A DNA stretch of 64,000 bases. Origin: Candidatus Latescibacterota bacterium. GTDB taxonomy: Bacteria > Latescibacterota > UBA2968. The translations under genes were made by a program, and so were the position numbers. Location of the stretch: the NCBI GenBank assembly GCA_965220765.1, contig OZ244847.1, positions 640,646 to 704,645 on the forward strand. The letters are read 5' to 3'. Shown here piece by piece: positions 7,417-63,990 of the stretch; position 1 is the stretch's first letter; the number at the start of each line of letters is the position of its first letter. The notes beneath the pieces are model-generated. The model did not search any database and was not told the DNA's origin. It saw only the letters and a list, made by a program, of their open reading frames with translations.

Positions 7417-7525
7417 GGATAATAAGCGGTCAGTGGTTAGTAGCCAGCGATCTCAGCGATCAATCCCATCCATCGTCATTGCGGCACGCTTAAAGCCGCA
7501 ATCCAGAAGGTTTTGTTTTTAGCCG

Positions 7526-10531: not shown

Positions 10532-10672
10532 TGGGGTTCTCCTTATGACGACCAGCGATAAATTTTTGTGGCTTATCGCCGCTATGTGTGACTATATTAG
10601 CGTCGTTCAAACAGAAAGTTACATGACGTATTTTTAAATACAAGAAAAATTGAAATAGCTTCCGAAAACACT

Positions 10673-12661: not shown

Positions 12662-12825
12662 TGGGACCACGTAAGAACACAATCCGCAGAAGAAACGCGA
12701 ATAATTTGAGCGTTTCACACAGATAAATGGTAGAGGCAAAAAACCTTTCGCCCATTGTTATGTGTGTTGTAGGGGCGGGTCCCCGTGCCTGCCCGTCATC
12801 GCGTTTAAGCCGCTCTATTGCATTA

Positions 12826-14037: not shown

Positions 14038-14064
14038 ATATATTTCATTGATTCTACTTAAAAG

Positions 14065-14517: not shown

Positions 14518-14718
14518 CAATAATACCTCCTTCAAAACACAAAGGTACGGGTAGCTGTCTCCCATCATTAAAGTCGCCGATTAGACTGACAGACATAGAG
14601 AAACTGCCTGTTCCTGTCCTGCCGTGAACATCGGTCACTATCACGGTAAGTTTGAAGTGCGAAGTGGGATGAGACAATGGAGAGGTGTTGGGAGGTTCTT
14701 ACTTTTTACTTTTTACTT

Positions 14719-45211: not shown

Positions 45212-45243
45212 CTGCCGTATAGATTGGTGTATAAAAAGACAAT

Positions 45244-45978: not shown

Positions 45979-45981
45979 TTC

Positions 45982-47250: not shown

Positions 47251-47255
47251 ACCTC

Positions 47256-49456: not shown

Positions 49457-49459
49457 GTG

Positions 49460-50536: not shown

Positions 50537-50578
50537 TCATCATGCGTATGAGAAAAAAATCTGGTGATCAATGTGAGA

Positions 50579-51238: not shown

Positions 51239-51310
51239 CTCATTTGGGATTTATTGACGTTGGTGAGTGGTCATACGATGTATTTCACCACGAACAGAAT
51301 TGATTAATCC

Positions 51311-51385
51311 CACATTCCCATAAACTTGAGCTTTGAACTGCTGCCTACCGCCGACACGCGACTTGCCAGGGTCTGTCAGTGGATT
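51311..51385 (+). repeat. repeat module copy 1 (5'-truncated)
   Basis: cacattccca-taaacttgagctttgaactgctg-cctaccgccgacacgcgacttgccagggtctgtcagtgg, shared with copies at 54.2, 60.0 and 63.4 kb. Confidence 0.8.
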
Positions 51386-51400: not shown

Positions 51401-51871
51401 TTACGAAAGTCCCACACTTCTTCGAGAAGAAAAAAGAAAATGGTCGAGAGAAACAGGTGTAGATTTGAAAAAAAACAAAAAATAACAGCAGAGTAAGAAG
51501 ACCAAATCCTGGAGCAACGCGACATACAAACTGGTTTCATTGAACCCAAAACAACCACAGGCGATGTCTGCACCGCGGAGAATATTAATGCCCACTGCTG
51601 CTGCAAATATTAAAAAAAGACCAAAGCTACTGAGCACAGCACTCTTGTGCCACAAACCGAGAAATAAAAATAAACCTGTCACAAGCTCAATCCAGGGCAA
51701 GAAGATCCCCCATAGCACGACCAATCCCTCAGGGAGCAAATTGTAGGCTTTAACAATTTTAATAAATGCTTCGGGATTACGGATTTTTACAATTCCAGCC
51801 CACCCCAGAATAACTCCCAGAAATATCCTGGCCACGGTTCCTGCCCATGCTATTTTGGGAGATAGAATCAT
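51401..51871 (-). CDS. MauE/DoxX-family membrane protein
   Basis: 156 aa, 4 transmembrane helices. Conserved CGCFG pair of cysteines typical of MauE-like proteins. Overlaps the rhodanese gene by 4 bp. Confidence 0.6.
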   Translation of the reverse strand: MILSPKIAWAGTVARIFLGVILGWAGIVKIRNPEAFIKIVKAYNLLPEGLVVLWGIFLPWIELVTGLFLFLGLWHKSAVLSSFGLFLIFAAAVGINILRGADIACGCFGFNETSLYVALLQDLVFLLCCYFLFFFKSTPVSLDHFLFSSRRSVGLS

Positions 51872-52362
51872 CTGTCAAAACCAGTTTGAATCGGATTTAC
51901 TCCCTTTACCCATTCCTCCCATCCGCCTTCAAAAACTTGAACATGTATAAATCCAAATTTCCTTTTTAGAGATCTCGCCAATTCGACACTGGTATTACAA
52001 TTTATGCCAGAACAATAGACAATTATTGGGGTCTCGCGGGCGACATCAGCCAAAAGCTGCTTGGAGAAATAATCGTGCTGAATATACGGTATGTTCACTG
52101 CCCCTAAAATATGGCCTTTTTGATAGGCAGATTCAGAACGTCCATCAATGAGTAATATTTTTGATTTCGATTGAATTATATTTCGAAGCACCTCTAAAGA
52201 GAGATATGTTATATCACCTTTTTGTTGAGAGGTTTCAGCTTCACTCAACAGAAGCTGCTCGCTAAAAATGACAGTATAAATCAATCCTGCGCCTATTCCC
52301 AAAATTTGGATGACCAATGCACGCAAGAGGACTAACTTATAATTGTAGAATCCCACACTCAC
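51868..52362 (-). CDS. membrane-anchored rhodanese-domain protein
   Basis: 164 aa. N-terminal transmembrane helix. ..IIVYCSGINCNTS active-site Cys loop. Confidence 0.8.
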   Translation of the reverse strand: MSVGFYNYKLVLLRALVIQILGIGAGLIYTVIFSEQLLLSEAETSQQKGDITYLSLEVLRNIIQSKSKILLIDGRSESAYQKGHILGAVNIPYIQHDYFSKQLLADVARETPIIVYCSGINCNTSVELARSLKRKFGFIHVQVFEGGWEEWVKGVNPIQTGFDR

Positions 52363-52374: not shown

Positions 52375-54144
52375 TTATGCGATAAGTTGCTTGCGAAAAA
52401 GATGCCAATAGTGTCCTTTCCTCTTCACCAACTCGCCATGGAGTCCTTGCTCAACCACTCTGCCCCCATCCAAACAAATAACCTCATCTACCTGCTGGAT
52501 GGTGCTGAGTCTGTGGCTAATCACAATCAGGGTCTTATCTTCATATAGATCCTGTAAATTTGCTATAATTTTACCTTCGCTTTCAGAATCCAGTGCCGAT
52601 GTTGCTTCGTCAAGGATCAGAATATCCGAGTTTTTCAAAATTGCACGCGCAATCGCAATACGTTGTCTTTGACCAGCCGAAAGCGTGTTACCACGATCAC
52701 CGATAAGCGTAAGCACCCCATCTTCAGACTTCTCAATAAATCCATCCAAACCAGTTAGCCTGATCGCTTGATTGACCTCTTCGGGTGTACTTTTGGGCTT
52801 GCTGTACCGGATATTGTTCCAGATCGTATCATGAAAAACTTGATTTTCCTGGGTTACCAGACCAATATGCTCTCTCAGATCATACAGCTTGATATTGGTA
52901 ATCGGTGTGTGATCAATCGCAATCTCACCTGTATCGGATTCGTAAAAGCGACACAGCAAATTGACTAATGAACTCTTGCCACAACCGCTTGACCCCACCA
53001 GAGCATATTTTTTCCCTTTCTCAAGTCTTAAACTGAAGTCCTGCAAAACGGGTTGTCCGTTATATCCGAAATTGAGGTTGGTAAACGCAATCTCCTTTTG
53101 AAAAGAAAACGGACTGGTGGCAGACCCATCTGCTGTTTTCTGAATATCAATCTCGAGAAACTCGAATACCCGCTTCATTGAAACAGATACACGGACGAGT
53201 TCTACATAAAGCTGATTGAGATTTCTAAATGGTTCAAAAAGACGCGACAGGTACTGCAAAAAAGCAACCAATGCCCCCAGGCTCATGGCCCCCAACATGA
53301 CTTTATGGCCTCCCCATCCCAAAATGAGTGCCGGAGTCAATGACGTTAACAATCTCGAAATCGATCTCATCGCTCCAGAGTAGGTTACATTTTGCATACT
53401 GATATCCATGAGACCATTTAGCTGTGACCGCAGTCTATTATTTTCATAATTATAGGCATTATAGACTTGAATCAATTGGATAGACTCGAATCGCTCAATC
53501 AAATAGCTCATGACTTCAGAGCCTTTCTTTCGCCCGCGTTCCGTAATATCTCTTATTTTGGGCTGGAAGTAGCGAATATTGAGTGCCAGAAAGGGTATGA
53601 CAATAATAGAAACCAAAAATAGCTGCCAGTTTAACCAGCACAGAGCCACAGTAAGCCCTATGAGTGTCAGCAAGCTATGTATAAGACTCAAAGCACTTGA
53701 AGTAATAAACGACTGTATCCGATCCACTTCGTTGCTCATTCGATAGACCACATCTCCAGATTTATTGCGATCATAAAAGCTCAATGGCAACTGGATCAAG
53801 TGATCAAAAAGATGGCTTCTTATATCCAGCATAATGCGATTGTTTATATAGGCAAATAAATAGTTTGAACAAAAACTAATGATGATATTCCCTACCGTAA
53901 CACCCAATAGCAGAAGTAAAATCCATATCAATAGTTCATAGTCTTCGTTTGGAAACACGTCATCAATGATAATTTTCATGATATAAGGGAAGGCCAGCGA
54001 GCTAATAGTCCCTAAAATCATGAGCACGAAAACAACGCTTTGATGTATCCAATAAGGTTTCAGAAATTTTAAAAAATGATAAAAGACATGTCTCTGCTTA
54101 GAGAGACTGAAAATGGCGGATATGACTTGTTGTTTGTCCTTCAT
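52375..54144 (-). CDS. ABC exporter, fused permease/ATP-binding protein (ABCB-type half transporter)
   Basis: 590 aa from MKDKQQ. 6-transmembrane-helix domain, then Walker A GSSGCGKSS, signature LSAGQRQR and Walker B ILILDEATSALD. The longer ORF to 54354 reads through the repeat element and is rejected as the start. Confidence 0.9.
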   Translation of the reverse strand: MKDKQQVISAIFSLSKQRHVFYHFLKFLKPYWIHQSVVFVLMILGTISSLAFPYIMKIIIDDVFPNEDYELLIWILLLLLGVTVGNIIISFCSNYLFAYINNRIMLDIRSHLFDHLIQLPLSFYDRNKSGDVVYRMSNEVDRIQSFITSSALSLIHSLLTLIGLTVALCWLNWQLFLVSIIVIPFLALNIRYFQPKIRDITERGRKKGSEVMSYLIERFESIQLIQVYNAYNYENNRLRSQLNGLMDISMQNVTYSGAMRSISRLLTSLTPALILGWGGHKVMLGAMSLGALVAFLQYLSRLFEPFRNLNQLYVELVRVSVSMKRVFEFLEIDIQKTADGSATSPFSFQKEIAFTNLNFGYNGQPVLQDFSLRLEKGKKYALVGSSGCGKSSLVNLLCRFYESDTGEIAIDHTPITNIKLYDLREHIGLVTQENQVFHDTIWNNIRYSKPKSTPEEVNQAIRLTGLDGFIEKSEDGVLTLIGDRGNTLSAGQRQRIAIARAILKNSDILILDEATSALDSESEGKIIANLQDLYEDKTLIVISHRLSTIQQVDEVICLDGGRVVEQGLHGELVKRKGHYWHLFRKQLIA

Positions 54145-54192: not shown

Positions 54193-54368
54193 CACCTTAC
54201 TCGATAAGCTCAAGTAAACTATTCTCTCAAGCTCACATTCCCAAATGCTTGAACTTTGAACTGCTGCCTGCCCGCGCCGTCGCCTGTCCGCATGCAGGTG
54301 TTCCGCACAGGCAGGCACGGCAGGCAGGTCTGCCGCCGACATTCGACTTGCCAAGGTCTGTCGGCAAC
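54193..54368 (+). repeat. repeat module copy 2 (with a roughly 60-bp GC-rich insertion)
   Basis: ccttactcgataagctcaagtaaa...ctcaagctcacattcccaaatgcttgaactttgaactgctg-[60-bp insert]-ctgccgccgacattcgacttgccaaggtctgtcggcaac. Confidence 0.8.
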
Positions 54369-54407: not shown

Positions 54408-55514
54408 TCACTGTCCGGTAGAGGCTCCTTGGGGTTCAGTTAGACGATAGACACGAATCCTGCCATTGGTATCTTCGCCATCCTCAGGAGGCGAATACGC
54501 ATATATAGAATTCCCATGGCAAGTAAAAATATTGTACCCCAATTCATTCTTCACTTCCTGTGCATAAGGCTGCACATCCAAATCCGATAAAAGTATAAGT
54601 GCAGTACTCATTGATAAATCCTCAAAAGTGTACCTGAGCAAAATATCTCCCGAAGACAAGATATGCATGCCGTACAACCTGCTGAACCTATGTTGGGATA
54701 ATTGTCTTATATCTTTGCTATCATCTACTTCATCTAACTTGAGACTGACAAATTTGGGATGATTTGTGACTATGGGTGTAAGAAACTCCTGTGCTGTCAA
54801 ATCAATTCGCATAACTTTATCTTCCCAAGGCAGCGCAAAGTATATGATTTTTCGCACTTCGTCATAAGCAAGCCCTTGGTAACGCTGCAAACCAAAAAAT
54901 AGTTTTCCGTATTGTGTATCGCAGACCTTGAACTTTGCGAGGTCGTCACCAGTGTCAAGGGAAGTGACGCAAAGCATACCGTTTTTGTTTTTATCTACAT
55001 AAGTATGAATGAGATTATGACCATCGGAAACCGCCAAGCGATTAATAAAGCGTCTCTCAGATAGCTCTACTTTCCCTACAAATTCACCTTTGAGTGAAAA
55101 TCGAAGCGTCTGTCCGGTTCCTCCATCGTAGATTAGTATTTGGTCGGTATTGGGGATAGTCGTTGGGTGAGTCGGTATCTTGTACTGGCCTTCTCCTTCC
55201 CCCCGACTGCCAATAGACCGCTTATAGCTTCCCTCTCTGCCAAAAACTTCGACACTTTTTCTCATAGTATCTAAAATAATGATGTAGTCCTCCACAACCA
55301 CAATAGATCCGACACGCCCGAGAAACGGTCCCGCCTCTGGGTGTTCGAGGGTAATAACATCAATCAATGCGATCTGGGGGGGGGGGCCTTGTGTTTGCAC
55401 CTTAGGGACGACCCTATCGAGCTGGTTTTCAACAGTACTTTTTTCGCAACTTCCAAAAATAAGAAAGAGGAGTGTCAGCCACCTCGCGGAAACCAATAAC
55501 TTTTTTTTATTCAT
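54408..55514 (-). CDS. beta-propeller lipoprotein (6-bladed-propeller-like) carrying a 12-nt homopolymeric tract
   Basis: 368 aa. Lipobox LIFGSC. Repeated blade-like segments. A G12 run on the plus strand at 55376-55387 encodes the PPP of ..QGPPPQIA... Confidence 0.5.
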   Translation of the reverse strand: MNKKKLLVSARWLTLLFLIFGSCEKSTVENQLDRVVPKVQTQGPPPQIALIDVITLEHPEAGPFLGRVGSIVVVEDYIIILDTMRKSVEVFGREGSYKRSIGSRGEGEGQYKIPTHPTTIPNTDQILIYDGGTGQTLRFSLKGEFVGKVELSERRFINRLAVSDGHNLIHTYVDKNKNGMLCVTSLDTGDDLAKFKVCDTQYGKLFFGLQRYQGLAYDEVRKIIYFALPWEDKVMRIDLTAQEFLTPIVTNHPKFVSLKLDEVDDSKDIRQLSQHRFSRLYGMHILSSGDILLRYTFEDLSMSTALILLSDLDVQPYAQEVKNELGYNIFTCHGNSIYAYSPPEDGEDTNGRIRVYRLTEPQGASTGQ

Positions 55515-55540: not shown

Positions 55541-56498
55541 TCGATATTCCTGAGAAGTTGTTTTAAAAATGGATCGTTTAATCGAGTCTGTTGAGTAAGA
55601 GGTAAATCATAACAATGTGAATAAAGGCTTCACTATTGTCAGTCAAGTCTTCATAATCCTTTGACAGACGGCGAAAATTTAATAACCAAGCAAAGGTGCG
55701 CTCAACGACCCAACGGCGCTTGGCGACCTGGAAGCCCTCACCTTTAGGCTTAACAACCTCAAGATCAATTTTATACGTGCGCTTCCTATCAGCGACCCAT
55801 TCCTTGAGGTCATCGCCGCGATAGCCGCCATCAACCCACAGCTTGCGTAAGCGTGTTGTTCCTTGCTCAAAATACTGATTCAGCAGATGCTTGAGGCCGT
55901 CACGATCTTGGAGATTGGCAGGCGAGACAAAGGCGTTGATCACCAGGCCGAGGGTATCGACAAACAGGTGGCGTTTGCGTCCATTGACCTTTTTGCCAGC
56001 ATCGTAACCTTTTGAGTCTTTTTGTGTTGCACTCTTGACACTTTGACTGTCAATGCAGCCTGCTGATGCGGTAGCTTTGCGTCCTTGTCGTTTTCTCTCT
56101 TTTCGTGTGAGTGCTTGTTGCATACGCTCAAAGACACTTTGCTCGCGCCACTTATTGAAATAGCCATACACGGTTTGCCAGCAGCCAAAGGTATGAGGCA
56201 ACATGCGCCATTGGCAGCCCGTCTTCGTCAGATACAGGATGCCATCAAACACGTTCCGCAAATTGACAGGGGGACGTCCACGGCTACCTTTTCGCCATTT
56301 GCGCTTGGGCAGGAGTGGGATGAGCAGTTGCCATTGCGCTTCGGTTACATTTGTCGGATATTGCCGGTGCGTATTCATCGCAGGTCCTTTCGTTTCAGGG
56401 TGATATGCACTACCTGAATTTGGACAGATGAATACGCTTTTTCAACGCTTTTTTTCTTCTTTCATAATTTTAAAACAGCTTCTGAGGATTTACCGAGA
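55541..56498. mobile_element. IS5-family insertion sequence (about 0.96 kb) with about 25-30-bp imperfect terminal inverted repeats
   Basis: Left end tcgatattcctgagaagttgttttaaaaatgg. Right end reverse-complement tcggtaaatcctcagaagctgttttaaaattatg. Single transposase ORF inside. Confidence 0.75.
55578..56378 (-). CDS. IS5-family DDE transposase
   Basis: 266 aa. DDE_Tnp_1-like motifs CIDSQSV (D), FVDTLGL (D), VVERTFAWL (E). N-terminal helix-turn-helix. Confidence 0.85.
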   Translation of the reverse strand: MNTHRQYPTNVTEAQWQLLIPLLPKRKWRKGSRGRPPVNLRNVFDGILYLTKTGCQWRMLPHTFGCWQTVYGYFNKWREQSVFERMQQALTRKERKRQGRKATASAGCIDSQSVKSATQKDSKGYDAGKKVNGRKRHLFVDTLGLVINAFVSPANLQDRDGLKHLLNQYFEQGTTRLRKLWVDGGYRGDDLKEWVADRKRTYKIDLEVVKPKGEGFQVAKRRWVVERTFAWLLNFRRLSKDYEDLTDNSEAFIHIVMIYLLLNRLD

Positions 56499-56574: not shown

Positions 56575-59052
56575 TCAGTCCTCTTGAAGGGCATCTATTG
56601 GACTTTCAGAGGCGACCTTGAACGCATGTATGAAGCCACCTATCAGCGGAAGAAGAATGCCTAAGAAGATTGCTACCAAAATCGTGCCAACACCAAATTG
56701 AAAGCGGTAGGCAAATATTGAGAGCCATTCATCCATAAAGAAATAGGAGAGCGGAAGCATGATGATGGCGGCGATAAATCCAGGTACTGCGTAGTTCAGC
56801 ACAATCCCACTGGCTATTTTGGAGGGCACAGCCCCCATGACCCTTCGGATGACGATTTCCTTTCTTCTGCGTGCCACGGCGAGGGAGATCATGCCCAGGG
56901 CACCCATTGACGCGATCAGGACAGCACACAAAGTCGCGCCAGAGACGATCTTGCTCCAACTGATTTCTCGGGCATAAAAGTGTCGCCTGTCATCTTCTAC
57001 AAAGGAAAATGTCAGGTGATGCTCCGTTTTGAGGTCTTGCCATAGTTCCTTGAGAAACGCACTAAATGCTTTGGCATTGCCATCTTGAAGCCGAATCAAT
57101 ATTTCACGGTCTTGTCGCTTGGTTGTTGCACCATCTGGGACAATCGTGATGATAGTCGGTGGGACCTTGTGGTGTGAACTTTGGAAGCGAAAATCCTTGA
57201 CTATACCTACAATACGGCCACTGACATCGCGACCAAACACGGGTCTTCTGAACTTTGTATCCGCCTGCGTGATCACCTGTCCAAGAGGCTGTGGTGATGT
57301 CAGGTGTTTTTGCAAGGCTTCATTCACGATTACATCGCCCGGGATAGGATTTGGATGTAAGGCTCTTCCTTGTAAGAGTTGCAACCCGACGGTCTTCAGA
57401 AAAGGGCCATCTACCTGATAATAGTTTACATTATCAATGAGTTTGTTACCGCTGTCTTTGATTAGAGTTGAGTTTGACGAATTTAGAGACAGATTCGTCC
57501 GAACAGAGGATGTCACGAGAGGAGACGCTGATAAAGACGCTTGCAGACGATCAATCTCATTTTCTGTCAACCCACTGGTATTGAGTCTGACCAGGTTCGC
57601 GGGTTCAAACCCTGGATCTGCTGTGATGACGAAAAAGGTCTGTTCAAAGATAATGATCGTGCAAAATACAAACACCAATGTCACACCCGACTGTACAGCC
57701 ATCAGTACCTTCAAAAAAGGACCAGACCTGACGGCCTTTGAGGTTTTGCTCAAAACGCTGATGGCAGACACAGACGACATAAATGTCGCCGGGTAAATGG
57801 CTGTGACCAGACCTATTAGACAGGCAAGTGATAGGAAAATGATCGCGGTCTGAATAGGATCTACCGAAGACATAAAAGGGATCCGCAAAATGCCTTCAAT
57901 AGGACTTGAGGCCAACTCTGCGACTGCCAGACTTATGATGCAGGCCAAAATGCTGTATCCAAAGCATTCGGCCAATAGCTGGTATCTGAGTTGCCGTCGG
58001 TTCGCGCCAAAGATTTGCCTGATGCCCAATTCTTTTGTACGCGAGTTGAACCGCGCTACATAAAGAAGCACGTAATTCAAACACGCGATAAACAGAACCA
58101 ATATACTGATACCGGCGAGAATATATCCATATAAGGGATTTGTTTTGCGAAACATACCATCAACAAATAGACCGATATAATGGTGCAGGTCTGTGAGGGA
58201 TTGCAATTTGGCCTGAAAGGTCTCTAAGTCCCATATTGAGTTGATAGAGGACTGCTTCTGCATGAACGTAGTGAGCTTTCTGTCCATTTCTTCCACATTT
58301 GATCTGTCTGCCAAACGGATGTAATGTGTGGATTCAAAGCCCCAGTCCCATTGTCCTTCTTCATTATCGAGAAAGGTCGTGGACATACTCAAGGGCAAAA
58401 GAATCTCGAAATATAAGCTCGAATTACGTGGAGGAGCCACGATGCCCCCGATTTCAACAGGGGCTACTACGGGTTTTATATCTCTCAAAAATCTGCGAGA
58501 AGCAACTCGCATCCATAACACTTTGCCTATCAAGTTGTCAATATCGTTGGTAAGCGTCTGAGCAAATCTACGTGTGATCACGACTTGCCCAGGGCGAGAG
58601 AAGAATGTACCGCGAATAAGGGGGAAGGAAAACATCTCTTCAAAACTTCTATCGACGAACAAGACATGTTGGATAGGTCGCAAAAACTCTTTGTGAGTAC
58701 CTACCTGGCAGGTCGCTGTCCCAATGACACTCTTTACACGGGTTGTATGCTCAATCTCAGGAAATTCAGCAGCCACCATGGAGGATAGTGCAACAGGAAA
58801 ACTGGCGGTCTCTGTCCATGTGCCCGCCAACGGTGTCCCTCTTATTGTTTTTTCATACTTGACCTTTCCGACAACGCAGTATATGCGATGATGGTCTTTG
58901 TGGAATCTATCAAAGCTCCAATCGTACAGGAAGTAAAGCACGCAGAGATAGCAGCAGGCAATTCCTATCCCCAAACCCAGCAGATTAATGGCTGCATACG
59001 TTTTATACTTGAGGATATTGCGAAACCATGTTCGGAAGTAATTGGCAATCAT
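56575..59052 (-). CDS. FtsX-domain ABC-transporter permease (MacB-like, two FtsX repeats)
   Basis: 825 aa. An N-terminal transmembrane helix, a large periplasmic domain and 3 transmembrane helices, repeated twice. No adjacent cognate ATPase gene. Confidence 0.8.
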   Translation of the reverse strand: MIANYFRTWFRNILKYKTYAAINLLGLGIGIACCYLCVLYFLYDWSFDRFHKDHHRIYCVVGKVKYEKTIRGTPLAGTWTETASFPVALSSMVAAEFPEIEHTTRVKSVIGTATCQVGTHKEFLRPIQHVLFVDRSFEEMFSFPLIRGTFFSRPGQVVITRRFAQTLTNDIDNLIGKVLWMRVASRRFLRDIKPVVAPVEIGGIVAPPRNSSLYFEILLPLSMSTTFLDNEEGQWDWGFESTHYIRLADRSNVEEMDRKLTTFMQKQSSINSIWDLETFQAKLQSLTDLHHYIGLFVDGMFRKTNPLYGYILAGISILVLFIACLNYVLLYVARFNSRTKELGIRQIFGANRRQLRYQLLAECFGYSILACIISLAVAELASSPIEGILRIPFMSSVDPIQTAIIFLSLACLIGLVTAIYPATFMSSVSAISVLSKTSKAVRSGPFLKVLMAVQSGVTLVFVFCTIIIFEQTFFVITADPGFEPANLVRLNTSGLTENEIDRLQASLSASPLVTSSVRTNLSLNSSNSTLIKDSGNKLIDNVNYYQVDGPFLKTVGLQLLQGRALHPNPIPGDVIVNEALQKHLTSPQPLGQVITQADTKFRRPVFGRDVSGRIVGIVKDFRFQSSHHKVPPTIITIVPDGATTKRQDREILIRLQDGNAKAFSAFLKELWQDLKTEHHLTFSFVEDDRRHFYAREISWSKIVSGATLCAVLIASMGALGMISLAVARRRKEIVIRRVMGAVPSKIASGIVLNYAVPGFIAAIIMLPLSYFFMDEWLSIFAYRFQFGVGTILVAIFLGILLPLIGGFIHAFKVASESPIDALQED

Positions 59053-59666
59053 CGGTCATCCATATTTTGTTAATAGCGGTGTGGATAAAAAACCGTGCCA
59101 TAGTCGGTAACCTTCGCTACTCAAATAATCACACATTTTCCCTGTCTTGGATGTTATGAGGAAGAGTGTTGAAGTTTTTGACAGCGTAAAATCAGTGTTA
59201 TCGGTAAATAGGCCGATAACACGAGGTTGTGCCTATATTAGTTGAAATAGTAGAGGTCCCAATGTAAATTGGATACAGCAGTTTCAACCGTGAAAACGCT
59301 ATATCCTCAACCAAAGGGGCCCGTAATCTGCCTGTGCGTTGCACGCAGACAGGTGAATAAAATATCGCACAAGCCCCCAAAGTCAAATCCACAAAGACGA
59401 TGCAACGCCACAAACACCCCCTGAAGAAGAACTGGACACACTGAATACACGCATCGCGCCAAGCCTTGATCCCAATAGGATTAGATGCCGTGGCAGAAGA
59501 ATTACAGCAGGAAGTGACCCGCTTAGCCGGGGACAGATATGGACTTGACCCGATAACACCGAACTAAATTTGAGCCTACCAAGAGGGTTGCACACTTTGC
59601 TTTTTTAAAGGGGCATATAGAAATGCTCTATTTTAATGAACTATCTCAAGTGAGACAATCATTGTA

Positions 59667-59900
59667 TCAGCATGGTCCCCAAGTTTTTCTCGTACTATAT
59701 GCCTCCTCTGATCTACATTCGTAATAAGGAAAATACTCCCGGCACTCATAGTAAGTGGTTATGGTCACACACCTAACCGGATCTCCAACAGTCTCTCTTA
59801 TACGACCCGTCTCAATCCAGATACCCCAGTCGTGCCACTCATATCCATAAATACGTGGAGAAGACAGCGGAGACTTCTCAGGCTTGGTCAAGATCTTCAT
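59667..59900 (-). CDS. small Cys/aromatic-rich peptide (candidate precursor peptide)
   Basis: 77 aa. Strong RBS AAAGGAAAGGAGGTG 7 nt before the ATG. Four Cys. Internal YYEC..YYEC repeat. Repeat module copy 3 lies immediately upstream. Confidence 0.45.
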   Translation of the reverse strand: MKILTKPEKSPLSSPRIYGYEWHDWGIWIETGRIRETVGDPVRCVTITTYYECREYFPYYECRSEEAYSTRKTWGPC

Positions 59901-59946
59901 AATATCACCTCCTTTCCTTTTGGGTCAAGTAAAAGTGTGCTTGCCC

Positions 59947-60085
59947 TTACTTGATAGGCTCAAGTTCAAGTAAAACCATTCTCTCCCGCTCACATTTTCC
60001 AAATGTTTGAGCTTTGAACTGCTGTGGTAACCCGCCCTTGGGAGCTACCGCCGACACTTGACTTGCCATGGTATGTCGGCGGCTA
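59947..60085 (+). repeat. repeat module copy 3
   Basis: cttacttgataggctcaagttcaagtaaaaccattctctcccgctcacattttccaaatgtttgagctttgaactgctg-tggtaacccgcccttgggagcta-ccgccgacacttgacttgccatggtatgtcggcgg. Confidence 0.8.
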
Positions 60086-60128: not shown

Positions 60129-60851
60129 TCAATAAACAAATGTAGATAAAGGATCTATCTCAAATTTCTTGGCAATAATTCGAGAATAGGGCACCCCTTT
60201 AAGATGACCGTTTAGAAGTGGTTTTTGTAAACGCAAATGTTTTTGAATCACACCAAAAAAGAGGACTGTGTTTTGAGGGCGGTCTTTTGAAGGCAAATGA
60301 CAATGCGTTATGATATTCTTTTCATTGACAACAAAGACCGCTGGCGTGCGATGGGTGAGTACTTTATTCTGGAATAGCATGTTCTCAGTATCCGAAAGCA
60401 ACTCGTAATGCAGATTAAAACTTCTTTTGTATCTTTTCAACACGCCCGCAGGAGCATTGGCAAACGCATAAATTGGAAAGCGTTTTTCGGGGTCCTGGCT
60501 CTGGTACACATGCTCCAGTAACTTTATCTGGGTGATTAGACAGGGCTGACAGTCTTGAGGCTTGAAGACGAGAACCAATCCTTTTCCTGTTTTAGAAAAA
60601 TCCGTTGAAATCCAATCGCCATTTATATTCTTCAATTTCAACTTCGGAAATTCTTGCCCTTGATAATTGGAGGCATAAGTAGAAGTGTTTATATGCTCCT
60701 TGTAATCAGCATTCTCTATTCGGAGACCTCTGATTTCTTCCCAACGACGAGCGTTCGTATTTCTCAACTTCCATACCCCAAATAACGCAACAAAAAGAAA
60801 AACAGATAGCAGGATATTTAAAATCAGCGATATTTTGCGAATTTCTTGCAT
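60129..60851 (-). CDS. membrane-anchored TlpA/ResA-like thiol-disulfide oxidoreductase (thioredoxin fold, CxxC)
   Basis: 240 aa. N-terminal transmembrane helix. VLVFKPQDCQPCLITQ active-site CQPC. Confidence 0.7.
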   Translation of the reverse strand: MQEIRKISLILNILLSVFLFVALFGVWKLRNTNARRWEEIRGLRIENADYKEHINTSTYASNYQGQEFPKLKLKNINGDWISTDFSKTGKGLVLVFKPQDCQPCLITQIKLLEHVYQSQDPEKRFPIYAFANAPAGVLKRYKRSFNLHYELLSDTENMLFQNKVLTHRTPAVFVVNEKNIITHCHLPSKDRPQNTVLFFGVIQKHLRLQKPLLNGHLKGVPYSRIIAKKFEIDPLSTFVY

Positions 60852-60882: not shown

Positions 60883-62799
60883 TCAAAAAAAATCAACAAC
60901 AACATCGGCCATCTTTTTTTGTCCTTCTACGCTGATTATCTCAGTGGCTGGAAGGCCCTGCGTTGATTCTATGCGCGATGTGATTTGGCAAATTTCCGCT
61001 TTAGAGAGCGGCTGGTTGACGACTGTATTAACCGTGTCATTAACAATTTTTTTCTTATCACTAAAAACGAGCAGAATAACTTTTCCTTTTCCCAGGCCCT
61101 CTAACACGCGGATATTTTCCTGTATAAATTCAGGCTCGTCGATAGAATTAACGAGCAGGATATAGGCATCGGGAACGGTTCCAAAGAGCAAGATCAATGA
61201 GGGCAACGTATAACTCTGAGATTTTTCGTAAAAGCTATGAGGTATGATACCGGACTGACCACCAACAATGATGATATCCGGGTCTGAGTGTTCAATGCCG
61301 ACCATAGCGGAATTTAGAAGTGGAATGTGTAAATCTATGGGAATTTGGATGCTCTGATGCCCGTCATATCCATTTGGAAATGTAAAATCGAAATCAAATA
61401 ATGCAGATTGGTGTTCTGTACCCAATTGACCCACTTTATAGCCAATTTTCTGTAATTGTTTTCTCAGTGCCAATTGTGCAGTGAACTTGCCTTGTTGCGG
61501 TCCTGTCCCAAACACGCCCACGACAGGTTTCTGGCTTCTGTTTCTCCAATCATAAGTTTTGGTCAAAGCCTCATAAGTTGCAAAATCAATGGTCGGTGCT
61601 GCACAATGTAGATATTTTTCTTCAAATGCTTTACTTATGCTTTCGTATTGCTTATTTGCAATGGGGCTCAGACTGTAAACATTCTTGTTATGCTTCAATG
61701 CCAGTTTTAGAGATTCTTGTAACACATCGCGTTTCTTAATCCGGCTAATTTCATCCAAATAGCCCAAAACGAGCGTATCGCCGTATTGCAGACAGTCTTC
61801 CAAATTTTGTTGTATGATGAGATCAGATTCGACCCCACCAATAACCTCCCCACAATCTTTGCCTATGGTTCTTTTTCCAACAACGTCAACTACCCTTGCA
61901 ATTCTAAACGGCAATAACTCCTGAAACCGCACCAGCCCATGCATTTCTTTGTTATAGGGGAAAATCACAGCCTTTTCTATCCAGTCTGGCGTATTATTTG
62001 CCTTATTTAGGTCTCGGATAGAAACGTCTGAGCGAGACCTGGGCATTTCGCTCATTGCATAAGCACTGCTATCTACCAACTCGGGACATTGACTTAAGGA
62101 GTGCATCTGCAAAATTTCTGTCAGATCGTTGAAAGTTATGCCATCATATTTCTCTATGATCAGAGCAATCAAGCCAGAAACATGCGGAGCCGCAAAACTC
62201 GATCCGCCCATAAATATCTGTTTGCCTACCAGCCAATCGAGGCGTTGACGATCACCTCGTGCGACAAACTGTATTTTTTCGTGCGGGTCAAAAAAGTAAT
62301 CAAATTTTCCACTCACTTTTCCTCCTGCTACGCCAAAAACATTGGGAAAAGACGCGGGAATACTCGGTTGTCCATCATTTGATGTCGCCGCAACAATGAA
62401 CGTCTGGTGTTTGTGTGCAAAATCACAGGCCTCCTTCAAAATATCGATATTCCTCTCATCCAGAGTGCCTAAACTCAAATTGATAATGTGACAGTGATGT
62501 TCAACACACCAGTAAATCGCCTTGCACAAAATGTCCATTGTCGCTATCAGCTCTGATTCAAAAATTTTGACAGGCAAAAATTCTACATTGGGAGCCTTAG
62601 AGTGGATGACGCCAATACATGCTGTACCGTGGCCTATCATATCCTTGTAATTTGAATCCTGACCGCCATTGCAGAAACTGGTACCATTCAACACATGTAC
62701 ATCTTTGTGGCCGACGTTAAAACCGCTATCAATGACGCCGATCCGAGTCCCAGTACCTGTCAGCCCTGAAAAAAAATGCGCCATCAAAAAACCTTTCAA
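60883..62799 (-). CDS. intracellular S8 subtilisin-like serine peptidase fused to a roughly 400-aa C-terminal domain (possible CoA-binding/Rossmann-like region)
   Basis: 638 aa. Catalytic triad contexts GVIDSGF (D), HGTACIG (H), GGSSFAAPHVSG (S). No signal peptide. C-terminal half contains VVGVFGTGPQQGKFTAQLAL, which is SucD/CoA-binding-like. Confidence 0.8.
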   Translation of the reverse strand: MKGFLMAHFFSGLTGTGTRIGVIDSGFNVGHKDVHVLNGTSFCNGGQDSNYKDMIGHGTACIGVIHSKAPNVEFLPVKIFESELIATMDILCKAIYWCVEHHCHIINLSLGTLDERNIDILKEACDFAHKHQTFIVAATSNDGQPSIPASFPNVFGVAGGKVSGKFDYFFDPHEKIQFVARGDRQRLDWLVGKQIFMGGSSFAAPHVSGLIALIIEKYDGITFNDLTEILQMHSLSQCPELVDSSAYAMSEMPRSRSDVSIRDLNKANNTPDWIEKAVIFPYNKEMHGLVRFQELLPFRIARVVDVVGKRTIGKDCGEVIGGVESDLIIQQNLEDCLQYGDTLVLGYLDEISRIKKRDVLQESLKLALKHNKNVYSLSPIANKQYESISKAFEEKYLHCAAPTIDFATYEALTKTYDWRNRSQKPVVGVFGTGPQQGKFTAQLALRKQLQKIGYKVGQLGTEHQSALFDFDFTFPNGYDGHQSIQIPIDLHIPLLNSAMVGIEHSDPDIIIVGGQSGIIPHSFYEKSQSYTLPSLILLFGTVPDAYILLVNSIDEPEFIQENIRVLEGLGKGKVILLVFSDKKKIVNDTVNTVVNQPLSKAEICQITSRIESTQGLPATEIISVEGQKKMADVVVDFF

Positions 62800-62980: not shown

Positions 62981-63280
62981 TTATTCTAAAGTCACACCTG
63001 ACGTCTTTCGATATGTTTCAGTGGTTAATTTCCCATATATATACTGCGCTACCGAACGTGTCGAAGTGAGCATGTCTTCTGTGAGTTCTTCGTCCTCTAC
63101 GACCACGTCAAATGTATCCTCTAAGCCTGTCACCAGGGCCAGGGTGGAAATAGAATCGAGTATAGAATTCAAAGGAAGATTACCCCAATCTACATCATCG
63201 GATGGGACTTCACGGTCTAATGCTCTCAGGACCAGACCTTGAATCTGATTCTCAATCTCAGCTATTGTATTTTCTGTCAT
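62981..63280 (-). CDS. acyl-carrier-protein-like small acidic protein
   Basis: 99 aa, acidic. LPLNSILDSISTLALVTGLE resembles the phosphopantetheine-attachment helix II (DSL..EL) of carrier proteins. Confidence 0.4.
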   Translation of the reverse strand: MTENTIAEIENQIQGLVLRALDREVPSDDVDWGNLPLNSILDSISTLALVTGLEDTFDVVVEDEELTEDMLTSTRSVAQYIYGKLTTETYRKTSGVTLE

Positions 63281-63334: not shown

Positions 63335-63426
63335 TTACCATCAAGCTCACATTCCCAAATGCTTGAGCTTTGAACTGCTGTCTGCCGCCGACACTCGACT
63401 TGCCAGGGTCTGTCGGCGGCTTTTTT
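63335..63426 (+). repeat. repeat module copy 4 (most compact; second hairpin followed by T6)
   Basis: cttaccatcaagctcacattcccaaatgcttgagctttgaactgctg-tctgccgccgacactcgacttgccagggtctgtcggcggc-tttttt. Confidence 0.8.
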
Positions 63427-63450: not shown

Positions 63451-63990
63451 TTATAGTTTCAAGCCCGAAAGTTTGTCCTGACCTGCAAAATTTGTCCCAG
63501 ATTCTACTTTTTTGCGATATGTGGTCGGACTAACGCCATGCTTCTCTTTGAAAAACTTGCTAAAAGTCGATAAAGATGCAAATCCACACAGGTAAGCAAT
63601 TTCTGAAAGGGTATATGATGTGTTCTTCAACGCTTCCTCAGCCTTTGTTAGACGTACATTCCGAAGGCACATCCTGAACGGCATTCCCAGGTGCTTCTTA
63701 AACAATTTATATCCATAGCTTTCCGAGAACCTGAAATGACGTATGACATCTTTAAATTTCAGCTTTGGATTGCTGTAATTCGCCTCCAAAAATGATTCCA
63801 ACCAGATCTTCCACATATCTTGTGGAGGCATATATTTTTTGATCTTCGCCAAAAACACATCTCTCTTGATGGGTTTATCAAATACACTGACAGCACCGGC
63901 CTTGATCAGTTGCTCGCCCAATTCTGCGGATTGCAAATCTGTCATGACCAGCATAGCGGTCTGTATTTTCTCCGCCTTCACACGCTTCAA
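63451..63990 (-). CDS. AraC-family transcriptional regulator, probably with N-terminal receiver domain (5' end outside the window)
   Basis: C-terminal AraC helix-turn-helix (..SEIAYLCGFASLSTFSKFFKEKHGVSPTTYRK). Preceding ..IKAGAVSVFDKPIKRDVFLAKI resembles the end of a REC domain. The ORF runs to the window edge. Confidence 0.8.
   Translation of the reverse strand: MKRVKAEKIQTAMLVMTDLQSAELGEQLIKAGAVSVFDKPIKRDVFLAKIKKYMPPQDMWKIWLESFLEANYSNPKLKFKDVIRHFRFSESYGYKLFKKHLGMPFRMCLRNVRLTKAEEALKNTSYTLSEIAYLCGFASLSTFSKFFKEKHGVSPTTYRKKVESGTNFAGQDKLSGLKL

What the first reader, a model, noticed from the sequence alone, without database searches (positions are those of the whole stretch)
59667..59900. 77-aa Cys- and aromatic-rich small ORF with near-perfect RBS directly downstream of repeat copy 3
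Sequence is MKILTKPEKSPLSSPRIYGYEWHDWGIWIETGRIRETVGDPVRCVTITTYYECREYFPYYECRSEEAYSTRKTWGPC. It has 4 Cys and an internal YYEC...YYEC repeat. The RBS AAAGGAAAGGAGGTG sits 7 nt upstream of the ATG. It lies between the TlpA-like thioredoxin and the FtsX permease. This makes it a plausible precursor or substrate peptide for the neighbouring S8 protease and disulfide machinery. It could instead be a small regulatory protein.
Basis: partly seen in the sequence, partly recalled or inferred. Interest (0 to 1): 0.65.

Follow-up and report, generated by a model that had tools for sequence, protein, structure and literature searches.

The report
Hypervariable secreted-peptide precursor gene, Latescibacterota
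The 77-codon ORF is a real, conserved gene that most likely encodes the leader-carrying precursor of a small, strain-specific, disulfide-stabilised secreted peptide, made by a so far undescribed radical-SAM-less protease/carrier-protein/ABC-exporter gene cluster of uncultivated Latescibacterota bacteria.

Summary
The ORF exists as described, on the minus strand (59667-59900), with GGAGG 7 nt before the ATG. It is a real gene. It founds an unannotated family of about 30 proteins (56-84 aa) found only in Candidatus Latescibacterota assemblies. The family sits in one conserved cluster: response-regulator/AraC, ACP-like protein, S8 protease fused to a DUF1611/TIGR04066-like domain, membrane redoxin (CxxC), PEPTIDE, FtsX/MacB permease, DUF5128 beta-propeller lipoprotein, MsbA-type ABC exporter, rhodanese, MauE/DoxX.

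The first 21 residues (MKxLTKPxKxRLSSPRIYGYE) are conserved, with synonymous codon changes, and are predicted disordered. The rest is hypervariable (mean 25% identity, while neighbouring enzymes are 88-94% identical). It keeps two invariant Cys and is predicted to form a small beta-sheet.

Peptide, FtsX and DUF5128 form a module that is duplicated and exchanged between strains. The peptide cistron is closed by a conserved long-range 5'-UTR/3'-UTR RNA helix supported by covariation.

Best reading: a leader-dependent, Sec-independent precursor, cut by the cytoplasmic S8 domain, exported by the ABC transporter and oxidised outside the cytoplasm. This parallels QhpC/QhpE/QhpF and Haft's TIGR04066/ACP/subtilase/ABC maturation system, but without a radical SAM enzyme. 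The chemistry and the biological role are inferred, not shown.

The parts
59667..59900 (-). Precursor-peptide gene (77 aa plus stop). Residues 1-21 (59838-59900) form the conserved leader-like region. Residues 22-77 (59670-59837) form the hypervariable core, with Cys44, Cys53, Cys62 and Cys77.
   Evidence: sequence; family; synonymous changes at invariant residues; AF2: residues 1-20 disordered, 25-77 beta-sheet.
59908..59912 (-). Shine-Dalgarno core GGAGG, 7 nt before the ATG. The surrounding AAGGAAAGGAGGTGATAYT is identical in all homologous genes.
59932..59963 (-). 5' arm of a long-range mRNA helix. Helix A is TTGAGCCTATCAAG (59963-59950). Helix B is GCACACTTT (59940-59932). AGGG lies between them.
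59570..59598 (-). 3' arm of the long-range helix. AAAGTGTGC (59598-59590) pairs with helix B. CTTGGTAGGCTCAA (59583-59570) pairs with helix A. It starts 69 nt after the stop codon.
   Evidence: 98.7% of cells are paired in 10 genes and there are 3 compensatory pairs. Of 14 non-majority cells on one side, 11 are G.U on the sense strand and 3 are unpaired. The MFE and centroid of the 416-nt RNA both contain the helix (z = -4.0).
59988..60083 (-). Copy 3 of the cluster-specific hairpin+box element. The hairpin GCCGCCGACA...TGTCGGCGGT is at 60083-60047. The box ACAGCAGTTCAAAGCTCAAACATTTGGAAAATGTGAGC is at 60025-59988. It is the presumed promoter/operator of the peptide transcription unit.
   Evidence: The same element, in the same orientation, precedes the ACP operon, the ABC exporter and the EPS operon here and in all related loci.
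60883..62784 (-). Signal-less S8 subtilase fused to a DUF1611/TIGR04066-like P-loop domain. It is the presumed leader peptidase, with a partner domain of unknown chemistry. Its Asp (VIDSG), His (GHGT), Asn (NLSLG) and Ser (GGSSFAAP) motifs are present.
   Evidence: Peptidase_S8 84.8 bits; DUF1611 42.5 bits; QhpE model 139.6 bits against a cut-off of 165; TIGR04066 124.2 bits against a cut-off of 200; 57; homologues start at MAHFF.
62981..63280 (-). ACP-like small protein with an LDS(I) Ser motif. It is the first gene of the operon.
   Evidence: PP-binding 18.9 bits, just below the 20.8 cut-off; several ACP models match weakly. An ACP gene accompanies the S8-DUF1611 gene in all systems inspected.
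63451..63990 (-). Response-regulator/AraC-type (HTH_18) regulator, cut at its N-terminus by the window end.
   Evidence: translation. The syntenic genes are annotated Response_reg+HTH_18.
60129..60851 (-). Membrane-anchored thioredoxin-fold protein (AhpC-TSA/Redoxin) with a CQPC active site.
56575..59052 (-). Duplicated FtsX/MacB-type permease (ADOP-like, DarB-like). It is part of the variable peptide-linked module.
54408..55514 (-). DUF5128 / NHL-type 6-bladed beta-propeller with a lipoprotein-like N-terminus (..LIFGSC). It is part of the variable peptide-linked module.
52375..54144 (-). MsbA-type ABC exporter (6 TM helices plus NBD, no C39 peptidase domain). The true start is MKDKQQ at 54144, giving 589 aa as in the homologues.
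51401..52362 (-). Membrane rhodanese (51868-52362) and MauE/DoxX membrane protein (51401-51871). Together with the redoxin they form the extracytoplasmic thiol-redox set.

Best explanation
The ORF encodes a ribosomally made precursor of a small secreted peptide.

Proposed pathway:
- Residues 1-21 (MKILTKPEKSPLSSPRIYGYE) act as a leader. The leader is not a Sec/Tat signal. It is recognised by the cluster's own machinery.
- The cytoplasmic, signal-less S8 domain of the S8-DUF1611 fusion removes the leader. The likely cut is at or just after the invariant I-Y-G-Y motif, which offers hydrophobic P4 and P1 residues as subtilases prefer.
- The MsbA-type ABC exporter carries the roughly 56-residue core across the inner membrane.
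- The membrane redoxin (CxxC), MauE/DoxX and rhodanese set then forms or corrects its disulfides. C53-C62 would form in all members. C44-C77 would form in addition in this subtype. The result is a compact beta-sheet mini-protein.

The core is strain-specific and travels with its own FtsX/MacB permease and beta-propeller lipoprotein. I read these two as the cognate handling or self-protection partners of a bacteriocin-like or recognition peptide.

The peptide cistron is bracketed by a 5'-UTR/3'-UTR helix of about 25 bp. This helix most likely gives a discrete, nuclease-protected (possibly RNase III-excised) precursor mRNA. That would let the substrate be made in excess of the enzymes.

Shown: the gene, the family, selection on the protein, synteny, the leader/core architecture, the variable module, and covariation in the RNA helix.

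Inferred: cleavage, the cleavage site, export, disulfides, the role of FtsX and DUF5128, and the role of the helix.
For: - Family. About 30 proteins with invariant M1 K2 L4 T5 K6 Y18 G19 Y20 C53 C62, and no Pfam or NCBIfam model.
- Protein-level selection. The invariant residues show synonymous third-position changes (K AAA/AAG, T ACA/ACC/ACT, I ATT/ATC/ATA, Y TAT/TAC).
- Translation signal. The RBS is identical in all genes.
- Synteny. It holds in every locus examined.
- Variation. Between genomes, S8 is 88-94% and ABC 87-91% identical. The leader averages 68% and the core 25%.
- Structure. AF2 with the family alignment gives residues 1-20 below pLDDT 50 and residues 25-77 at pLDDT 76-96, all beta.
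- Cysteines. 25 of 30 cores have an even Cys number.
- Protease. The S8 domain has no room for a signal peptide, aligns to mature subtilisin, and scores best against QhpE. QhpE cuts the leader of the Cys-rich QhpC in the cytoplasm before export by the ABC transporter QhpF, under an inducible transcriptional regulator (PMC7876137).
- Variable module. The peptide + DUF5128 + FtsX module is duplicated in tandem in L006 and L007. Core identity correlates with FtsX identity (Mantel p = 0.006) and weakly with DUF5128 (p = 0.06), but not with S8 or ABC. The module is 98-100% identical between two genomes whose S8 genes are about 92% identical.
- RNA helix.. In the divergent L014 system a helix of completely different sequence occupies the same position.
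Against: - There is no experimental evidence of translation, cleavage, export or disulfides.
- The cluster contains an ACP-like protein and a DUF1611/TIGR04066-like domain whose roles this model does not explain.
- TlpA/ResA-type redoxins are usually reductants rather than oxidants.
- Five of 30 cores have an odd Cys count.
- The FtsX permease has no ATPase gene beside it, and L010 has no FtsX at all.
- The model has no fold match, so its structure gives no functional hint.
- The correlation of the core with DUF5128 is only marginal.
- The same regulatory element precedes the neighbouring polysaccharide operon. This could point to a signalling or matrix-related role rather than antagonism.
Confidence: 0.6

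Rival explanations
1. It is the precursor of a more heavily modified RiPP. The conserved ACP-like protein and the DUF1611/TIGR04066-like domain perform carrier-protein-dependent chemistry on the peptide, for example N-acylation after leader removal or another ligation. The Cys residues and the redox proteins would then be secondary. Leader cleavage and export are the same as in the main model.
For: An ACP gene and the S8-DUF1611 fusion co-occur in every system inspected, across phyla. The ACP serine motif is kept. The TIGR04066 and ACP-related proteins are fixed partners in the Firmicutes Cys-rich-peptide maturation system (PMC4573289, PMC10731318). BtrH_N/DUF4872-type genes occur nearby.
Against: The cluster contains no acyl-ACP-loading enzyme, ligase or acyltransferase. 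The ACP hit is below Pfam's cut-off. The function of TIGR04066 and DUF1611 in peptide maturation is unknown. Nothing in the peptide marks an acceptor site.
Confidence: 0.2
2. It is a secreted signalling (pheromone-like) peptide. The polymorphic core defines pherotypes. Through the adjacent response-regulator/AraC protein it controls the cluster itself and the neighbouring exopolysaccharide genes.
For: The core is hypervariable while the processing machinery is conserved. The same hairpin+box element precedes the peptide gene, the machinery operons and the EPS operon. A response regulator is always the first gene of the locus.
Against: There is no sensor kinase in the conserved cluster. A folded core of about 56 residues is large for a pheromone. 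A dedicated FtsX permease plus lipoprotein for each peptide looks more like handling or immunity than sensing.
Confidence: 0.12
3. It is a cytoplasmic small regulatory protein, or an accessory subunit of the protease/redox machinery, and is not a substrate.
For: There is no signal peptide. The protein is small and Cys-containing.
Against: A hypervariable body attached to a conserved, disordered N-terminus is the opposite of what a subunit or regulator with a fixed partner would show. The gene is duplicated together with membrane or periplasmic partners.
Confidence: 0.05
4. It is a protein-derived-cofactor or small-subunit precursor, like QhpC (quinohemoprotein amine dehydrogenase gamma subunit) or MauA.
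For: The cluster has a QhpE-like protease, a QhpF-like ABC exporter, an AraC-type regulator and MauE.
Against: There are no dehydrogenase subunits, no QhpD-type radical SAM enzyme and no QhpG in the window or the syntenic loci. A catalytic subunit would not have 25% core identity between strains whose other genes are about 90% identical. The peptide matches no model.
Confidence: 0.02
5. It is a spurious ORF inside an inverted-repeat-flanked DNA element (a MITE, an inverton or a cassette). The repeats would act on DNA, not RNA.
For: The ORF is bracketed by inverted repeats of about 30 nt, roughly 350 nt apart. IS remnants (Y1_Tnp) lie next to it in L001 and L002. The segment is highly variable.
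Against: There is purifying selection on the leader codons. The reading frame is open in about 30 diverged members. All 13 genes inspected (the ten plus L014, L016 and L017) are in the same orientation as the operon, so there is no sign of inversion. Of 14 non-majority cells on one side, 11 are G.U on the sense strand and 3 are unpaired, which fits RNA pairing. The recombination tract between L001 and L002 does not end at the repeats. No recombinase gene is conserved in the cluster.
Confidence: 0.01

Closest known systems
Haft's Cys-rich-peptide 'peptide maturation system' of Firmicutes: TIGR04065 precursors, the radical SAM maturase CcpM (TIGR04068), the TIGR04066 protein, the ACP-related protein TIGR04069, a subtilase and an ABC transporter. 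Examples are the Roseburia cluster and the SacP23 cluster.
   Same: It has the same set of accessory genes. There is a TIGR04066-like domain (124 bits, here fused to the subtilase), a small ACP-like protein, an S8 protease, an ABC exporter and a small Cys-containing peptide. The Melioribacteraceae relative L013 links the two systems: it has the S8-DUF1611 fusion, an ACP, an rSAM/SPASM enzyme and a candidate Cys-rich precursor.
   Different: There is no radical SAM enzyme in the window or in the conserved part of the syntenic clusters; L016 has a separate one upstream. The peptide does not match TIGR04065 and the ACP does not match TIGR04069. TIGR04066 scores below its cut-off. This cluster adds redoxin, MauE and rhodanese, plus the FtsX and beta-propeller module. 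The phylum is different.
Maturation of the QhpC gamma subunit of quinohemoprotein amine dehydrogenase (QhpE protease, QhpF ABC exporter, regulator QhpR)
   Same: A small Cys-rich polypeptide carries an N-terminal leader that is not a Sec signal. A signal-less subtilisin-like protease cuts the leader in the cytoplasm. An efflux-type ABC transporter then exports the polypeptide, and the genes are co-regulated (PMC7876137). The best NCBIfam match of the S8 domain is QhpE.
   Different: The QhpE score (139.6) is below the cut-off (165). QhpD, QhpG, QhpA and QhpB are absent. The core is hypervariable rather than a conserved enzyme subunit.
MauE/MauD of methylamine dehydrogenase, and the DoxX-rhodanese membrane thiol-oxidoreductase complex of mycobacteria (the latter from my own knowledge)
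   Same: A MauE/DoxX membrane protein occurs together with a thioredoxin-fold protein and a rhodanese, next to a small multi-Cys exported polypeptide. PMC7876137 notes six disulfides in the MADH beta subunit.
   Different: There is no MauA or MauB. The redoxin matches only the general AhpC-TSA/Redoxin and ResA-like models.
Lantibiotic-type self-protection (LanFEG ABC transporter plus LanI lipoprotein) and polymorphic bacteriocin or pheromone loci (own knowledge)
   Same: A peptide-specific membrane permease and a lipoprotein are encoded next to, and vary with, a variable secreted peptide.
   Different: The proteins are unrelated (a MacB-type duplicated permease without an adjacent ATPase, and an NHL beta-propeller). 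The immunity role is purely inferred.
Long-distance 5'-3' pairing in small-ORF mRNAs (the hok fbi/tac interaction of type I toxin mRNAs; RNase III stems that excise cistrons) (own knowledge)
   Same: The mRNA of a small ORF is closed by pairing of its 5' and 3' untranslated ends, and this is conserved by covariation.
   Different: The peptide is not a hydrophobic toxin. No antisense RNA is evident. The SD is not inside the helix. No Rfam family matches.

Membership tests
TIGR04065-04069 Cys-rich peptide maturation system (CcpM system) | Radical SAM/SPASM maturase (TIGR04068) | tested here: not met
   No CxxxCxxC motif occurs in any ORF of at least 150 aa in the 64-kb window. No Radical_SAM Pfam hit lies inside the conserved cluster of any syntenic locus; L016 has a separate rSAM gene upstream of the regulator.
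TIGR04065-04069 Cys-rich peptide maturation system (CcpM system) | TIGR04066-family maturation protein | tested here: inconclusive
   Residues 275-550 of the S8 fusion match TIGR04066 at E = 5.9e-36 and 124.2 bits. The curated cut-off is 200.
TIGR04065-04069 Cys-rich peptide maturation system (CcpM system) | ACP-related protein TIGR04069 and precursor of family TIGR04065 | tested here: not met
   The ACP-like protein hits only generic ACP models, and the peptide hits nothing, even at E <= 10.
TIGR04065-04069 Cys-rich peptide maturation system (CcpM system) | Subtilase and ABC transporter in the cluster | tested here: met
   Peptidase_S8 84.8 bits; ABC_membrane 182 bits plus ABC_tran 110 bits.
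Qhp (quinohemoprotein amine dehydrogenase) maturation | QhpE equivalog protease | tested here: inconclusive
   NF049966 scores 139.6 bits against a cut-off of 165.
Qhp (quinohemoprotein amine dehydrogenase) maturation | QhpD radical SAM enzyme, QhpG, and structural subunits QhpA/QhpB | tested here: not met
   None is present among the cluster genes or in the syntenic loci.
Double-glycine-leader bacteriocins (class II / NHLP type) | GG/GA cleavage motif in the leader and a C39 peptidase domain on the ABC transporter | tested here: not met
   The leader has no GG motif. The ABC exporter has only ABC_membrane and ABC_tran, and starts at MKDKQQ with no N-terminal peptidase domain.
Lanthipeptides / other enzyme-defined RiPP classes | Class-defining enzyme (LanB/C/M, YcaO, P450, rSAM) adjacent to the precursor | tested here: not met
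   Pfam annotation of all cluster genes shows none of these.
Pfam INT_rpt (PF14882, integrase repeat unit) | Significant match of the protein or its family to the repeat profile | tested here: not met
   Pfam gives no hit for the ORF. The phmmer hits are sums of 4-11 tandem stretches that score from about -2 to 23 bits each, with independent E of 9e2 or more for the stretches shown in detail. The family profile built without the query finds none of these proteins.
MauE/MauD disulfide system of methylamine dehydrogenase | MauE-family membrane protein | tested here: met
   PF07291 MauE scores 90.2 bits against a cut-off of 27.
MauE/MauD disulfide system of methylamine dehydrogenase | MauA small subunit / MauB | tested here: not met
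   There are no such hits in the cluster.
Type I toxin mRNA with 5'-3' fold-back (hok-like) | Hydrophobic membrane toxin ORF and cis-encoded antisense RNA | tested here: not met
   The peptide is hydrophilic and acidic, with no TM segment. No Rfam match was found. The presence of an antisense RNA cannot be tested here.

The most novel reading that the evidence does not exclude
The locus may represent a new, radical-SAM-independent class of ribosomal peptide natural product. In this reading an S8-protease/DUF1611 fusion and a dedicated acyl-carrier protein process, and possibly acylate or otherwise derivatise, a leader-bearing peptide. The product would be a polymorphic 'lock-and-key' molecule whose core co-varies and is exchanged together with its own MacB-type permease and beta-propeller lipoprotein, serving kin discrimination or immunity in sponge/coral-associated Latescibacterota. 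The precursor's dosage would be set by a conserved 5'-3' mRNA clamp. This would also give a first handle on the function of the widespread S8-DUF1611 + ACP gene pair, which has more than 1000 homologues across phyla.
Probability: 0.25. Interest if true: 0.8.

Novelty: new variant of a known kind. Interest (0 to 1): 0.58.

Why it matters
The ORF turns an anonymous small reading frame into the founding member of an unannotated precursor-peptide family in a phylum with no cultured representatives.

It also defines a compact conserved cluster: regulator, ACP, S8-DUF1611, redoxin, peptide, FtsX, propeller, ABC exporter, rhodanese and MauE. This cluster could be expressed heterologously.

The S8-DUF1611 + ACP pair is widespread, with more than 1000 proteins across phyla. 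It has been listed as a 'peptide maturation system' for over a decade without a known reaction. This radical-SAM-less version isolates that pair from thioether chemistry, so its function becomes directly testable.

The strain-specific peptide/permease/lipoprotein module suggests peptide-mediated strain interactions in the assemblies that carry it. The covariation-supported 5'-3' mRNA helix around a precursor cistron is an unusual and testable mechanism of post-transcriptional control.

Tried and rejected
1. INT_rpt homology. The exhaustive phmmer search listed many large 'integrase repeat' proteins at E down to 1e-13. These hits come from summing weak matches (about -2 to 23 bits each) to tandem repeats. 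They disappear when the family profile is used without the query. Rejected as a chance, member-specific resemblance.
2. Transposase remnant in the 615-nt gap after the ORF. There is no similarity to the Y1_Tnp fragment that follows the gene in L001 and L002. Only the 3' arm is shared.
3. Known RNA families. An Rfam scan of 50.5-64 kb found nothing.
5. JGI metagenome scan for more members. None was found. The GTDB representative genomes gave only two Latescibacterota loci.
6. Leader similarity to the Cys-rich 127-aa protein of the Melioribacteraceae rSAM cluster (MKPLKKPIKPL...VYLYES). It is visible by eye but not significant with the family HMM. I keep it as a lead only.
7. C-C' pairing (ACTTGACCC/GGGTCAAGT) in the window. 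It is not conserved in other loci. Dropped.
8. Sigma-70 promoter and terminator scan. It gave only weak consensus matches, including a terminator-like hairpin at 59195-59222. Not decisive.
9. Literature. I found no paper on this family, on DUF1611 in RiPPs, or on DUF5128/MauE clusters.
10. The look-up of encoding contigs could not locate the window's own record. The organism is therefore inferred from relatives.
Full report
**1. The observation**

- The ORF is real and lies at 59667-59900, on the minus strand.
- Upstream the sequence reads AAAAGGAAAGGAGGTGATATT-ATG. GGAGG is at 59912-59908, 7 nt from the start codon.
- Cys are at 44, 53, 62 and 77. YYEC occurs at 50-53 and 59-62. 13 of 77 residues are aromatic.
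- The ORF lies between a redoxin gene and an FtsX/MacB permease gene, just downstream of one copy of a four-copy repeat.
- ORFs of this size are common by chance: 79 ORFs of at least 40 aa overlap the last 12 kb. The case therefore rests on comparative evidence.

**2. It is a gene**

- A word-seeded search found only the protein itself, on a 5.7-Mb NCBI/ENA contig.
- An exhaustive HMMER scan of 1.84 billion representatives found five small homologues of 74-84 aa.
- A profile search then brought the family to about 30 clusters of 63-84 aa. None has a Pfam domain or a name. Pfam and NCBIfam give no hit for the ORF, even at E <= 10.
- Invariant positions are M1 K2 L4 T5 K6 Y18 G19 Y20 C53 C62.
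- In eight distinct genes, the invariant residues are encoded by different synonymous codons: K AAA/AAG, T ACA/ACC/ACT, P CCT/CCA, I ATT/ATC/ATA, Y TAT/TAC. Conservation therefore acts on the protein.
- The RBS block AAGGAAAGGAGGTGATAYT is identical in all genes.
- The two loci retrieved from species-representative genomes are Candidatus Latescibacterota MAG chromosomes. Other members come from ENA assemblies, including TARA samples.

**3. Anatomy of the protein**

- The first 21 residues (consensus MKtLTKPxKsRLsSPrIYGYE) are conserved, with a mean pairwise identity of 68%.
- The remainder is hypervariable, with a mean of 25% and a range of 2-57%.
- Cores are acidic (mean net charge -7) and about 15% aromatic.
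- Cores have 2 Cys (12 members), 4 Cys (13), 3 Cys (4) or 5 Cys (1). The count is even in 25 of 30.
- C44 and C77 are present together in the window's subtype and absent together in the 2-Cys subtype.
- AlphaFold2 with the family alignment predicts residues 1-20 as disordered (pLDDT below 50). Residues 25-77 form a confident all-beta mini-domain, with pLDDT 76-96 and strands at 25-38, 44-55 and 67-74.
- No solved structure resembles the model; all Foldseek matches have E above 1.
- There is no hydrophobic signal sequence.
- The second YYEC is specific to this member.

**4. Context**

In every locus inspected the gene sits in the same cluster. The gene order is:
- response-regulator/AraC
- ACP-like protein of about 95 aa
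- S8-DUF1611 fusion
- membrane redoxin with CQPC
- peptide
- FtsX/MacB duplicated permease
- DUF5128 NHL-type beta-propeller with a lipoprotein-like N-terminus
- MsbA-type ABC exporter without a C39 domain
- membrane rhodanese
- MauE/DoxX
- polysaccharide genes

The S8 domain begins at the very N-terminus. The catalytic Asp lies about 20 residues from the start, and the homologues start at MAHFF. This leaves no room for a signal peptide. The D/H/N/S motifs are present.

The best NCBIfam matches of the S8 fusion are QhpE (139.6 bits, cut-off 165) and, for residues 275-550, the 'peptide maturation system protein' TIGR04066 (124 bits, cut-off 200).

No ORF of at least 150 aa in the window has a CxxxCxxC motif. 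No conserved Radical_SAM gene appears in the syntenic loci.

**5. A variable module in a conserved machine**

- Between genomes, S8 is 88-94% and the ABC exporter 87-91% identical. FtsX is 72-87%, DUF5128 is 61-90%, and the peptide core averages 25%.
- Core identity correlates with FtsX identity (Spearman 0.53, Mantel p = 0.006) and weakly with DUF5128 (0.35, p = 0.06). It does not correlate with S8 or ABC.
- L006 and L007 each carry two tandem peptide + DUF5128 + FtsX modules beside single copies of everything else.
- L001 and L002 differ by about 8% in S8 and redoxin DNA. They are 98-100% identical from the peptide 5' UTR through FtsX and DUF5128.
- The S8 protein most similar to the window's that has retrievable context (L016, 92%) sits next to a different, 2-Cys peptide type.
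- The peptide and its two envelope partners therefore behave as an exchangeable unit.

**6. mRNA architecture**

- The cistron is bracketed by inverted repeats. The 5' arm is TTGAGCCTAYCRRG...GCACAYTTT (window 59963-59932). The 3' arm is AAAGTGTGC...CYYGRTAGGCUCAA (59598-59570), which starts 69 nt after the stop codon.
- In ten genes, 98.7% of the 230 pair cells form standard pairs, against 17-43% when the partners are slid.
- Three pairs show double (compensatory) changes. Of the 14 non-majority cells on one side, 11 are G.U on the sense strand and 3 are unpaired.
- Only 1 of 500 column shuffles reaches the observed covariation score.
- L017 completes a U-A to U.G to C-G series at one pair.
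- The MFE and centroid folds of the 416-nt window RNA contain the closing helix (z = -4.0). The same is true for L001 (z = -2.4).
- In the divergent L014 system (S8 55% identical), an uncalled 56-aa family member is flanked by a completely different, perfect 16-bp pair (CGACCUUCAGCUAUUC / GAAUAGCUGAAGGUCG) at the same relative positions. That pair closes the fold (z = -6.4).
- This is structure conserved without sequence conservation, on the sense strand. It therefore points to an RNA feature.
- All 13 genes inspected (the ten above plus L014, L016 and L017) are oriented like the operon. The L001/L002 recombination tract does not end at the arms. Both points argue against an inverton or cassette site.

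**7.

- The hairpin (GCCGCCGACAGACCCTGGCAAGTCGAGTGTCGGCGGC) plus box (GCAGCAGTTCAAAGCTCAAGCATTTGGGAATGTGAGC) occurs four times in the window.
- In all related loci it occurs in gene orientation about 65-120 nt before the ACP-S8 operon, some peptide genes, the ABC exporter and the polysaccharide operon.
- It is best read as the cluster's shared promoter/operator. The adjacent regulator is the obvious candidate binder, but this is inferred.
- In the window the peptide has its own copy. In L001, L005 and L011 it has none, so there it must be co-transcribed with the upstream genes.

**8. Mechanism proposed**

The steps below are inferred from the anatomy and from the characterised QHNDH pathway (PMC7876137).
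- The precursor is translated from a helix-closed, probably processed and stabilised mRNA.
- Its disordered leader is bound and removed in the cytoplasm by the S8 domain. The invariant I-Y-G-Y offers hydrophobic P4 and P1 residues.
- The core is exported by the ABC transporter.
- The core is then oxidised or isomerised by the redoxin/MauE/rhodanese set. C53-C62 would form in all members, and C44-C77 would form here in addition.
- The FtsX permease and the propeller lipoprotein that co-vary with the core handle it in the envelope, for further export or self-protection.
- The ACP and the DUF1611-like domain are unexplained. They may add carrier-dependent chemistry.

**9. Comparison with known systems**

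- The gene set corresponds to Haft's TIGR04066 / ACP-related / subtilase / ABC 'peptide maturation system', known from Roseburia and Paenibacillus clusters with a CcpM radical SAM enzyme (PMC4573289, PMC10731318).
- The S8-DUF1611 fusion with an ACP is widespread, with more than 1000 hits. In a Melioribacteraceae genome it is accompanied by a PapB/SCIFF/CcpM/QhpD-like rSAM/SPASM enzyme and a Cys-rich 127-aa candidate precursor.
- The window's system fails the defining rSAM, TIGR04065 and TIGR04069 tests. It is therefore not a member of that system, but a radical-SAM-less variant with a new precursor family and an added redox set and envelope module.
- It works like the QhpC/QhpE/QhpF route, but it is not a Qhp system.

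**10. Verdict**

- The gene is certain. The precursor/export model is likely (about 0.6). The chemistry and the biological role are open.
- Novelty: a new variant of a known kind, namely a leader-dependent secreted-peptide system. It comes with an undescribed family and an unusual mRNA clamp.
- Interest is moderate to high for RiPP/bacteriocin and small-protein specialists, because the cluster offers a clean entry to the uncharacterised S8-DUF1611 + ACP pair.

Noticed in passing
window 51308-51383, 54231-54368, 59988-60083, 63345-63420 (gene-sense is the minus strand): A hairpin+box element occurs in four copies. It is conserved in sequence, orientation and position in all related Latescibacterota loci. 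It lies ahead of the ACP-S8 operon, some peptide genes, the ABC exporter and the DUF218/polysaccharide operon. It looks like a cluster-specific regulon promoter/operator that links the peptide system to exopolysaccharide genes. The hairpin stem shows some compensatory changes, for example GCCGCTGACA/TGTCAGCGGT.
   Followed up: partly
window 55578-56378 (-): An IS5-family transposase is inserted between the FtsX and DUF5128 genes. In the other loci these two genes are adjacent or nearly so, so the insertion is specific to this genome and may uncouple the module.
   Followed up: partly
L001 vs L002 (about 6400-14560): There is a recombination mosaic. The S8 and redoxin genes are about 84-96% identical at the DNA level. 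From about 260 nt upstream of the peptide gene through FtsX and DUF5128, the two genomes are 98-100% identical.
   Followed up: yes
L014:17039-17209: An uncalled 56-aa, 6-Cys member of the family (MKTLTKKRSTKGRNPVYGYDFNW...) lies in a divergent paralogous cluster (S8 55% identical). That cluster also contains a formyltransferase gene. The member is flanked by a different, perfect 16-bp 5'/3' inverted repeat.
   Followed up: partly
L013:5512-5895 (Melioribacteraceae GCA_041538185.1): A 127-aa Cys-rich protein lies next to an rSAM/SPASM maturase and an S8-DUF1611 + ACP pair. Its N-terminus (MKPLKKPIKPL...VYLYES) resembles the leader by eye, but the resemblance is not statistically significant. 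There may be a shared leader type across phyla.
   Followed up: partly
L015:7044-8961 and 11223-12242: A second S8-DUF1611 + ACP system exists in a Latescibacterota genome. It has four tandem membrane mini-proteins of about 105 aa carrying CxxC...CxxC motifs, a 131-aa acidic protein, and a BtrH_N-like gene directly after the ACP.
   Followed up: no
L016:1643-4587: A separate small ORF plus a radical SAM gene plus two unknown genes lie upstream of the response regulator in the locus whose S8 is 92% identical to the window's. This arrangement is not conserved in the other loci. The window ends before the equivalent region.
   Followed up: no
L001:10588-10869, L002:10435-10728: Y1_Tnp (IS200/IS605-type) gene fragments lie immediately after the peptide gene. 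The window's 615-nt gap has no such remnant.
   Followed up: yes
window 59053-59569 (-): About 500 nt of apparently non-coding sequence lies between the 3' helix arm and the FtsX start. This is longer than in the other loci. It contains a terminator-like hairpin at 59195-59222.
   Followed up: partly
window 59799-59888 (peptide residues 5-34): A member-specific resemblance to the Pfam INT_rpt repeat (KPxxIPxxPxxxYxxxWxGWGDWLGTGRI) produced many apparently significant hits to large repeat proteins. It was shown to be a summation artefact.
   Followed up: yes
window 16146-16350: A 27-nt tandem repeat (TTTTTGGCTGTTTTTTTAGTTGCCTGC-like, about 5 or more copies) lies inside the minus-strand ORF 15256-16407. 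It presumably encodes a Lys/Ala-rich repeat.
   Followed up: no
window 43481-51238 (-): A polysaccharide-type gene set lies immediately downstream of the peptide cluster: DUF218, a DUF4872-like gene, GT4 glycosyltransferases, DUF4915, Bac_transf, DUF354 and a methyltransferase. The same set is found in the same place in several related loci.
   Followed up: partly
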